This document shows positions 21,809 to 22,416 of a stretch of 64,000 nt of DNA, piece after piece; positions within the stretch are counted from its first letter, which is position 1, and each line of letters begins with the position of its first letter. This DNA is from Escherichia coli (lineage in GTDB: Bacteria > Pseudomonadota > Gammaproteobacteria > Enterobacterales > Enterobacteriaceae). The position numbers and the translations under genes were made by a program. The notes beneath the pieces are model-generated. The model was not told where the DNA came from and ran no database searches. It saw only the letters and a list, made by a program, of their open reading frames with translations. The stretch lies in NCBI RefSeq assembly GCF_044324875.1, contig NZ_CP172185.1; one strand, 5' to 3'.

Positions 21809-21896
21809 GGTGAGGTGTCCGAGTGGCTGAAGGAGCACGCCTGGAAAGTGTGTATACGGCAACGTATCGGGGGTTCGAATCCCCCCCTCACCGCCA
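21809..21896 (+). tRNA. serW: tRNA-Ser (anticodon GGA)
   Basis: 88-nt sequence GGTGAGGTGTCCGAGTGGCTGAAGGAGCACGCCTGGAAAG...GGTTCGAATCCCCCCCTCACCGCCA with long variable arm and encoded CCA. Confidence 0.9.
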
Positions 21897-22057
21897 TATT
21901 CAAAGAAGAGCTCGTACGAAAGTGCGAGCTTTTTTTTCGCATATTGCACTCCAGGGGGGATGAGAAGCCCCGACCGGGGTTCGACAACTGGCGCAGCCAG
22001 TTGGACAGACCACGAACACAGTGAGTGGGCTGCCCGCAGGGCGAGCGAAGCGAGTCA

Positions 22058-22112
22058 ATCCCCCCTCACCGCCATATTTAAAGAAAAGCTCGTACGAAAG
22101 TACGAGTTTTTT
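22058..22112 (+). repeat. Direct repeat of the tRNA-Ser 3' end (18 nt) plus its terminator
   Basis: AATCCCCCCTCACCGCCA followed by AAAGAAAAGCTCGTACGAAAGTACGAG+T-run duplicates 21879..21940 with few mismatches. Confidence 0.7.
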
Positions 22113-22416
22113 TCGCATTTTATCTGCCTGTACGGCAGTGAACGGTATAAAAATCGAGTTTTTCTTTCGGTTGGCTTTCTAAGCTGCCTGTACGGCAGTG
22201 AACTCAAATACTACACGTTTAGTCCGTTATTAATAAAGCAAAACCATCTCATTTTCCTGCTACCACCCTTTTTTATCCTTACCTTCCCGCAGCACTAATT
22301 ATCAACAACTTACCATCATCATCAAAAAAAGGGGCTGAACCTCCTCCACCCCATAAACAAAAAGTCCGTAACCTCTTTCGAGATTACGGACTTCACCAAC
22401 CTACCTAACAATTAGA

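What the first reader, a model, noticed from the sequence alone, without database searches (positions are those of the whole stretch)
22120..22210. Two copies of palindrome CTGCCTGTACGGCAGTGAAC downstream of clpA
A 20-bp element with internal dyad symmetry (CTGCC-N4-GGCAG) occurs twice 60 bp apart, between the clpA 3' end and the tRNA-associated repeat. It could be a protein-binding site pair or a small repeat family. It is not a canonical REP.
Basis: seen in the sequence. Interest (0 to 1): 0.2.

Follow-up and report, generated by a model that had tools for sequence, protein, structure and literature searches.

The report
Orphan type I-F CRISPR mini-array
The two "palindromes" are the two repeats of a tiny leftover CRISPR array found in nearly all E. 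coli; its single spacer matches a gene of the CRISPR system this strain no longer has, an already published "anti-cas" arrangement, so the finding is real but ordinary.

Summary
CTGCCTGTACGGCAGTGAAC occurs exactly twice (22124-22143 and 22184-22203), 60 bp apart, with none expected by chance.

On the minus strand the two copies are the first 20 nt of two 28-nt type I-F CRISPR repeats. The repeat at 22203-22176, GTTCACTGCCGTACAGGCAGCTTAGAAA, scores 50.1 bits against Rfam CRISPR-DR4 (gathering score 35). The repeat at 22143-22116 is a terminal repeat with a divergent 3' end. A 32-nt spacer (22175-22144) lies between them.

A 213-nt AT-rich leader lies between clpA and the first repeat. It is 90.6% identical to the leader of the genuine array that sits beside cas1f in cas-positive E. 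coli. No I-F Cas protein is encoded in the window.

The spacer matches csy3 (cas7f) of the E. coli I-F operon at 30/32, and csy3 of two other Escherichia species at 31/32. Both mismatches are synonymous third-codon changes, and the protospacer is preceded by the I-F PAM (5'-CC).

This is the known CRISPR3 / CRISPR4.1-2 / RR1 orphan array of the clpA-infA locus. Almendros et al. 2016 reportedly showed that such arrays block uptake of I-F cas genes.

Verdict: already known, low interest.

The parts
22176..22203 (-). Leader-proximal type I-F CRISPR repeat, GTTCACTGCCGTACAGGCAGCTTAGAAA.
   Evidence: Rfam CRISPR-DR4 RF01317: 50.1 bits, gathering score 35, E 1e-10, model positions 1-28 of 28. Identical to all internal repeats of the cas-adjacent arrays in L002 and L004. 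Folds as a 5-bp stem with a 5-nt loop, -8.6 kcal/mol.
22144..22175 (-). Single 32-nt spacer, GCCAACCGAAAGAAAAACTCGATTTTTATACC in crRNA sense. It is an anti-cas spacer that matches csy3 (cas7f).
   Evidence: 30/32 to csy3 of E. coli FDAARGOS_1253, with 5'-CC upstream; shuffled spacers leave at least 11 mismatches. Both mismatches are synonymous third-codon positions. 31/32 to csy3 of Escherichia sp. E1V33 and E. whittamii. In cas-F-positive E. coli the hits are annotated csy3. No protospacer in the phage or plasmid collections.
22116..22143 (-). Terminal (leader-distal) repeat, GTTCACTGCCGTACAGGCAGATAAAATG. The first 20 nt, including the hairpin, are intact and the last 8 nt diverge.
   Evidence: CRISPR-DR4: 29.7 bits, below the gathering score, E 2e-4. 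Alignment. It is the terminal repeat, unchanged or with 1-3 point changes, in all 12 other cas-less E. coli loci sampled. Folds into the same hairpin.
22204..22416 (-). Leader of the array: 213 nt, 39% G+C, between the clpA stop and the first repeat. It includes the clpA terminator (22394->22361) and a promoter-like site (22325->22298).
   Evidence: 90.6% identical to the leader of the cas1f-adjacent array in L002, 95.3% to K-12, and only 56% to the leader of the other (infA-side) array. Promoter and terminator consensus matches are predictions only.
22089..22106 (-). Terminator-like hairpin plus T-rich tail, 10 nt downstream of the terminal repeat on the array strand. It is the reverse reading of the serW/RtT terminator.
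   Evidence: Consensus scan. Prediction only.

Best explanation
This is an orphan (cas-less) type I-F CRISPR mini-array on the minus strand, co-oriented with clpA: leader, 28-nt repeat, 32-nt spacer, terminal repeat. The literature calls it CRISPR3, CRISPR4.1-2 or RR1 of the clpA-infA locus of E. coli.

Shown here:
- Repeat identity, 28+32 periodicity, hairpin and homologous leader.
- Absence of I-F cas genes from the window.
- A spacer derived from the I-F gene csy3, with the correct PAM.

Inferred from established I-F biology and published work: the array is transcribed from the leader. On its own it does nothing, because no Cas6f or Csy complex is present. If DNA carrying an I-F cas operon enters the cell, the incoming Cas6f would cut the transcript after position 20 of each repeat hairpin. 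That yields one 60-nt crRNA: the 8-nt handle CUUAGAAA, the 32-nt spacer and a 20-nt hairpin. The terminal repeat keeps exactly the 20 nt this requires. The incoming Csy complex and Cas3 would then be guided to csy3 on the incoming DNA, destroying it or triggering primed adaptation against it. The array would thus act as an 'anti-cas' vaccine that keeps active I-F systems out. The same spacer is also compatible with being a scar of past self-targeting that selected for loss of the cas operon.
For: - Rfam CRISPR-DR4 hits on both copies; exact identity to the repeats of cas-adjacent arrays.
- 60-nt period made of a 28-nt repeat plus a 32-nt spacer; hairpin fold.
- Leader 90.6% identical to that of the array next to cas1f in a cas-positive strain at the same chromosomal site.
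- No I-F Cas homologue in the window, with a ClpA control at 100% identity.
- Spacer matches csy3 at 30/32 and 31/32 with a CC PAM and only synonymous differences.
- In my sample of 13 cas-less arrays, 16 of 17 spacers (7 distinct) hit cas1f, cas3f or csy3 with 1-3 mismatches, 14 of the 16 behind CC.
- Literature: locus and names (PMC3903273; PMC2886076); one RR1 spacer matching csy3 (PMC12736100); PAM (PMC3506596).
- Two Mojica-group reviews report that native orphan arrays are constitutively expressed, interfere with plasmids carrying the I-F cas genes and prime new spacer uptake (Almendros et al. 2016 Nat Microbiol 1:16081, as described in PMC5972030, and PMC8616872).
Against: - Transcription and processing of this particular array were not tested; the promoter is only a 9/12 consensus match.
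- I found no csy3 allele that matches the spacer perfectly. The constant mismatch is at spacer position 2, inside what I recall as the I-F seed, so direct interference by this spacer may be weak and it may act mainly by priming, or not at all.
- Only 64 kb were available, so cas genes elsewhere in the genome cannot be excluded.
- I could not read the 2016 primary paper. I do not know whether the csy3 spacer was among those tested.
Confidence: 0.93

Rival explanations
1. It is a neutral relic. It is a true I-F CRISPR remnant, but this copy has no present function and persists only through inertia and its position between essential or core genes.
For: No cas genes at the locus. A seed-position mismatch to every csy3 allele found. 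Some strains are reduced to a single solitary repeat, for example XH992, so loss of the spacer is tolerated. Terminal-repeat hairpin mutations occur in K-12 and others (GACAG).
Against: The array region is present in 5407 of 5426 genomes. Nearly every retained spacer in sampled cas-less arrays is an anti-cas spacer (16 of 17), whereas none of the 20 spacers of the cas-positive strain L002 coincides with any of the anti-cas spacers sampled. Published experiments report interference by native orphan arrays.
Confidence: 0.05
2. One reading: a pair of DNA operators bound by a dimeric transcription factor that regulates clpA or serW.
For: Dyad symmetry and two copies spaced about six helical turns apart.
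Against: The sequence is identical over 28 nt to the repeat of arrays with up to 38 units next to cas genes. The spacing is exactly repeat plus spacer. The sequence between the copies differs between strains and derives from cas genes. The sites lie downstream of both convergent genes, beyond their terminators.
Confidence: 0.01
3. It has a Cas-independent RNA role. The hairpins or the transcript would act as a small RNA, as a terminator or insulator between the convergent clpA and serW units, or as a decoy that sequesters incoming Cas6f or Csy proteins in the manner of phage RNA anti-CRISPRs.
For: Stable hairpins between convergent transcription units that have terminators on both sides. Solitary repeat units in viruses have been proposed as dominant-negative inhibitors (PMC8616872).
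Against: There is no direct evidence. Dedicated terminators already flank the array. The consistent anti-cas content of the spacers is not explained by a role for the repeats alone.
Confidence: 0.01

Closest known systems
E. coli orphan CRISPR4 array with anti-cas spacers (CRISPR3 of Touchon & Rocha 2010; CRISPR4.1-2 of Diez-Villasenor/Almendros; RR1 of Slukin et al. 2025)
   Same: Same chromosomal site (clpA-serW-infA), same 28-nt repeat, same terminal repeat ending ATAAAATG, same leader, no cas genes, and one spacer matching an I-F cas gene with the I-F PAM.
   Different: Nothing of kind. The spacer is the csy3-directed one rather than the cas1f-directed spacer of K-12. The exact spacer is in roughly 380 of 5426 complete genomes (379 best hits at >=99% identity). 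This strain also carries an RtT element between serW and the array, which K-12 lacks.
Complete type I-F CRISPR-Cas locus of E. coli (e.g. LF82, FDAARGOS_1253)
   Same: Same locus, repeat and clpA-side leader.
   Different: The complete locus has cas1f, cas3f, csy1-3 and cas6f, plus a second array between serW and infA, 7-13 spacers per array in L002, and a different terminal repeat (ending TATTCACA). None of these is present here.
Virus-borne mini-CRISPR arrays and solitary repeat units (Faure 2019; Medvedeva 2019, as summarised in PMC8616872)
   Same: One spacer flanked by a full repeat and a truncated or degenerate repeat, no cas genes, and reliance on Cas proteins supplied in trans.
   Different: Those are carried by viruses and use the host's Cas proteins against competitors. 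This one is chromosomal and would use the invader's own Cas proteins against the invader.

Membership tests
Type I-F CRISPR array (Rfam CRISPR-DR4 / 'CRISPR-4' repeats) | Repeat sequence matches the family consensus over its full 28 nt | tested here: met
   The repeat at 22203-22176 scores 50.1 bits against a gathering score of 35. The terminal repeat scores 29.7 bits, below the gathering score, E 2e-4. Identical to the repeats of cas-adjacent arrays.
Type I-F CRISPR array (Rfam CRISPR-DR4 / 'CRISPR-4' repeats) | Regular repeat-spacer periodicity (28-nt repeat plus about 32-nt unique spacer) | tested here: met
   The period is exactly 60, as in L002 and L004. There are only two repeats, the minimum possible.
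Type I-F CRISPR array (Rfam CRISPR-DR4 / 'CRISPR-4' repeats) | Repeat RNA forms the 5-bp stem / 5-nt loop hairpin at positions 6-20 | tested here: met
   Minimum-free-energy fold .....(((((.....)))))........ at -8.6 kcal/mol for both repeats. Cleavage by Cas6f was not tested.
Type I-F CRISPR array (Rfam CRISPR-DR4 / 'CRISPR-4' repeats) | AT-rich leader upstream of the first repeat, homologous to the leader of a cas-linked array | tested here: met
   213 nt, 39% G+C against 50.5% for the window; 90.6% identical to the L002 cas1f-side leader.
Type I-F CRISPR array (Rfam CRISPR-DR4 / 'CRISPR-4' repeats) | Cognate cas genes adjacent (complete CRISPR-Cas locus) | tested here: not met
   tblastn with the six I-F Cas proteins finds nothing in the 64 kb window, and only 520 bp separate serW from clpA. 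The array is therefore an orphan, not a complete system.
Anti-cas orphan CRISPR4 array (Almendros et al. 2016) | Located in the clpA-infA interval of an Escherichia chromosome that lacks I-F cas genes | tested here: met
   Gene order infA - serW - RtT - array - clpA. ClpA is 100% identical to E. coli ClpA. The rest of the genome could not be seen.
Anti-cas orphan CRISPR4 array (Almendros et al. 2016) | Spacer matches an I-F cas gene next to the I-F PAM | tested here: met
   csy3 at 30/32 (E. coli) and 31/32 (E. whittamii, Escherichia sp. E1V33), with 5'-CC and synonymous mismatches only. PAM definition from PMC3506596.
Anti-cas orphan CRISPR4 array (Almendros et al. 2016) | Array is expressed and causes interference or priming against incoming I-F cas DNA | not testable with these tools
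   Known only from the literature, for other strains. Here there is only a promoter-like site at 22325->22298.
REP / BIME extragenic palindromes | Match to the REP consensus, many dispersed copies per genome | tested here: not met
   There are only two copies in 64 kb, and in other genomes the matching sequence is confined to this locus (median of one place per genome). The REP consensus itself was not scanned.

The most novel reading that the evidence does not exclude
This csy3-directed spacer mismatches every csy3 allele I found at seed position 2. The most novel reading is that it cannot direct interference and that the conserved repeat hairpins instead serve a Cas-independent role, such as an RNA decoy for incoming Cas6f or Csy proteins, or an insulator between the convergent clpA and serW transcripts.
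Probability: 0.03. Interest if true: 0.4.

Novelty: already known. Interest (0 to 1): 0.08.

Why it matters
For annotation, it matters that this short palindrome pair is labelled as a CRISPR remnant rather than as a regulatory site. NCBI's PGAP annotation leaves it unannotated in most genomes ("none" under the hits). Biologically, it is an example of a published idea: a genome can keep a one-spacer array as a trap that turns an invading CRISPR-Cas system against its own genes. That helps explain why most E. coli lack I-F immunity. Nothing here goes beyond what has been published since 2010-2016.

Tried and rejected
1. Protospacer search of the spacer in the phage and plasmid collections. Only sub-significant partial matches were found. 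The single 100% "plasmid" hit is a 4.9 Mb E. coli chromosome filed as a plasmid, that is, the same locus.
2. I tested whether the divergent last 8 nt of the terminal repeat (ATAAAATG) mark the junction of a simple deletion of the cas operon, by aligning with the serW-cas6f interval and the cas1f-side end of a cas-positive strain. The sequences do not correspond, and the cas-positive terminal repeat ends TATTCACA. The origin of the junction is unresolved.
3. The operator-pair and REP readings were considered and rejected (see the rival explanations).
4. The weak Rfam hits in the region (sX4, leader peptides, MicC and others, all far below their gathering scores) were dismissed as spill-over from the tRNA and terminator sequences.
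5. I could not obtain the primary 2016 Nature Microbiology paper and relied on two reviews by the same group.

Full report
**Observation.** The 20-mer CTGCCTGTACGGCAGTGAAC occurs exactly twice in the window, at 22124-22143 and 22184-22203 on the + strand. There are no further copies even with three mismatches allowed, and 100 dinucleotide-preserving shuffles gave none. The copies lie between the 3' end of clpA (ORF 22417-24708, minus strand) and tRNA-Ser(GGA) at 21809-21896 with its downstream repeat. The internal dyad is CTGCC-N5-GGCAG, not N4.

**What it is.**
- Read on the minus strand, the clpA-proximal copy extends to 28 nt: GTTCACTGCCGTACAGGCAGCTTAGAAA (22203-22176). It matches Rfam CRISPR-DR4 (RF01317) over the whole model at 50.1 bits (gathering score 35, E 1e-10).
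- The second copy (22143-22116, GTTCACTGCCGTACAGGCAGATAAAATG) scores 29.7 bits. It differs at five of its last eight positions.
- Repeat (28 nt) plus spacer (32 nt, 22175-22144) gives the 60-bp period.
- Each repeat folds into a 5-bp stem and 5-nt loop at -8.6 kcal/mol.
- A gathering-threshold Rfam scan of the whole window finds only the tRNA, this CRISPR repeat and an RtT element.

**Context.**
- The region is E. coli chromosome. The ClpA protein is 100% identical to E. coli ClpA. The 701-bp interval is found in 5425 of 5426 complete E. coli genomes, best at 99.0% in strain C4.
- In E. coli FDAARGOS_1253 the same site holds a complete type I-F system, in the order infA, CRISPR, serW, cas6f-csy3-csy2-csy1-cas3f-cas1f, CRISPR, clpA. 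It has 14 and 8 repeats that are identical to the window's repeat apart from each array's divergent terminal repeat.
- The 213 nt between the window's first repeat and the clpA stop are 39% G+C. They are 90.6% identical to the leader of the cas1f-side array of that strain, 95.3% to K-12, and only 56% to the leader of the other array.
- K-12 has the same two-repeat structure at this site with a different spacer.
- tblastn with the six I-F Cas proteins finds nothing in the window. The only csy3 "hit" (E 0.03) is the spacer itself.
- The array is therefore an orphan, oriented with its leader towards clpA and its degenerate repeat distal to the leader.

**The spacer.**
- In crRNA sense it reads GCCAACCGAAAGAAAAACTCGATTTTTATACC. 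It has no protospacer in the phage or plasmid collections.
- It matches csy3 (cas7f) of the E. coli I-F operon at 30/32, whereas shuffled spacers leave at least 11 mismatches.
- The two mismatches (spacer positions 2 and 23) are both third-codon positions and synonymous; both versions encode RQPKEKLDFYTL.
- The protospacer is immediately preceded by 5'-CC on the spacer-identical strand. This is the I-F PAM, written as GG at the leader-proximal end on the target strand in PMC3506596.
- A scan of one genome per bacterial species, with N at the two wobble sites, found only csy3 of Escherichia sp. E1V33 and E. whittamii. Both match 31/32 and again lie behind CC.
- Across complete E. coli genomes, 652 hold a match. 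379 are at >=99%; all of these that were listed are unannotated array copies. The hits listed at 30/32 fall almost entirely in annotated csy3 genes of cas-positive strains such as LF82, S88 and B7A.

**Generality.** I sampled 12 further cas-less loci from different identity bands.
- The arrays have 1-4 repeats. The terminal repeat ends ATAAAATG in every one; its 20-nt core carries 0-2 point changes.
- 16 of 17 spacers (7 distinct) match cas1f, cas3f or csy3 with 1-3 mismatches, and 14 of those 16 lie behind CC.

**Literature.**
- Touchon & Rocha 2010 call it CRISPR3. They noted that cas-less copies contain only spacers matching the cognate cas genes and proposed an "anti-CRISPR" role (PMC2886076).
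- A 2025 survey lists eight such RR1 spacers: two against cas1f, five against cas3f and one against csy3 (PMC12736100).
- Two reviews report the experiments of Almendros et al. 2016 (Nat Microbiol 1:16081). Native orphan arrays are constitutively expressed and elicit interference against plasmids carrying the I-F cas genes. They also prime acquisition of further plasmid spacers (PMC5972030; PMC8616872).
- I could not read the primary paper.

**Mechanism.**
- Shown here: the anatomy of an I-F array, the absence of cas genes, and a csy3-derived spacer with the right PAM.
- Inferred: transcription starts in the leader. A promoter-like site lies at 22325->22298, downstream of the clpA terminator at 22394->22361. 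A terminator-like hairpin lies at 22106->22089, 10 nt past the last repeat.
- From established I-F biology (my own knowledge), Cas6f cleaves after position 20 at the base of the hairpin.
- That crRNA can act only if Cas proteins are supplied by incoming DNA, whose csy3 gene would then be the target.
- Caveats: the position-2 mismatch to every csy3 allele found may weaken direct interference, and nothing about expression was tested here.

**Unresolved.** The origin of the ATAAAATG end of the terminal repeat is not explained by a simple deletion relative to the cas-positive configuration.

**Verdict.** It is a textbook instance of an already described and experimentally studied element, so interest is low.

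Noticed in passing
window 21940-22074 (+), with flanking duplicated blocks 21875-21945 and 22054-22123: An RtT element (Rfam RF00391, 48.6 bits against a gathering score of 45) sits between serW and the CRISPR remnant. It is bracketed by two roughly 70-nt copies (85% identical) of the tRNA 3' end plus its terminator. K-12 and O157 lack the roughly 180-nt block at this site, and only some E. coli genomes have it annotated here.
   Followed up: partly
L002 4552-4639 versus window 21809-21896: serW of the cas-positive strain differs from the window's serW at two positions (61 G>C and 77 C>G). These look like the two sides of one T-stem pair, i.e. a compensatory change, which suggests that the tRNA allele travels with the I-F island.
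   Followed up: no
L011 (E. coli 23AR0151), leader-proximal spacer: One spacer of a cas-less three-repeat array, GCACACGTCGAGCTGGTGGGGATTAATGCTGG, has no match in the I-F operon (13 mismatches, chance level), unlike the other 16 spacers sampled. Its origin is unknown.
   Followed up: no
L015 (E. coli CB209), downstream of the array: In this strain the array has 4 repeats and is followed by a hypothetical gene and a tyrosine recombinase instead of serW, which suggests an integrated element at or near serW.
   Followed up: no
PLSDB record NZ_CP134663.1 (hit H51): A 4.9 Mb E. coli chromosome is filed in the plasmid collection, which produced a spurious 'plasmid protospacer' hit for the spacer.
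   Followed up: yes
window 22082-22113 (+) / 22106-22089 (-): The serW/RtT terminator hairpin reads as a terminator-like structure on both strands, so it could terminate both the tRNA transcript and any CRISPR transcript.
   Followed up: no
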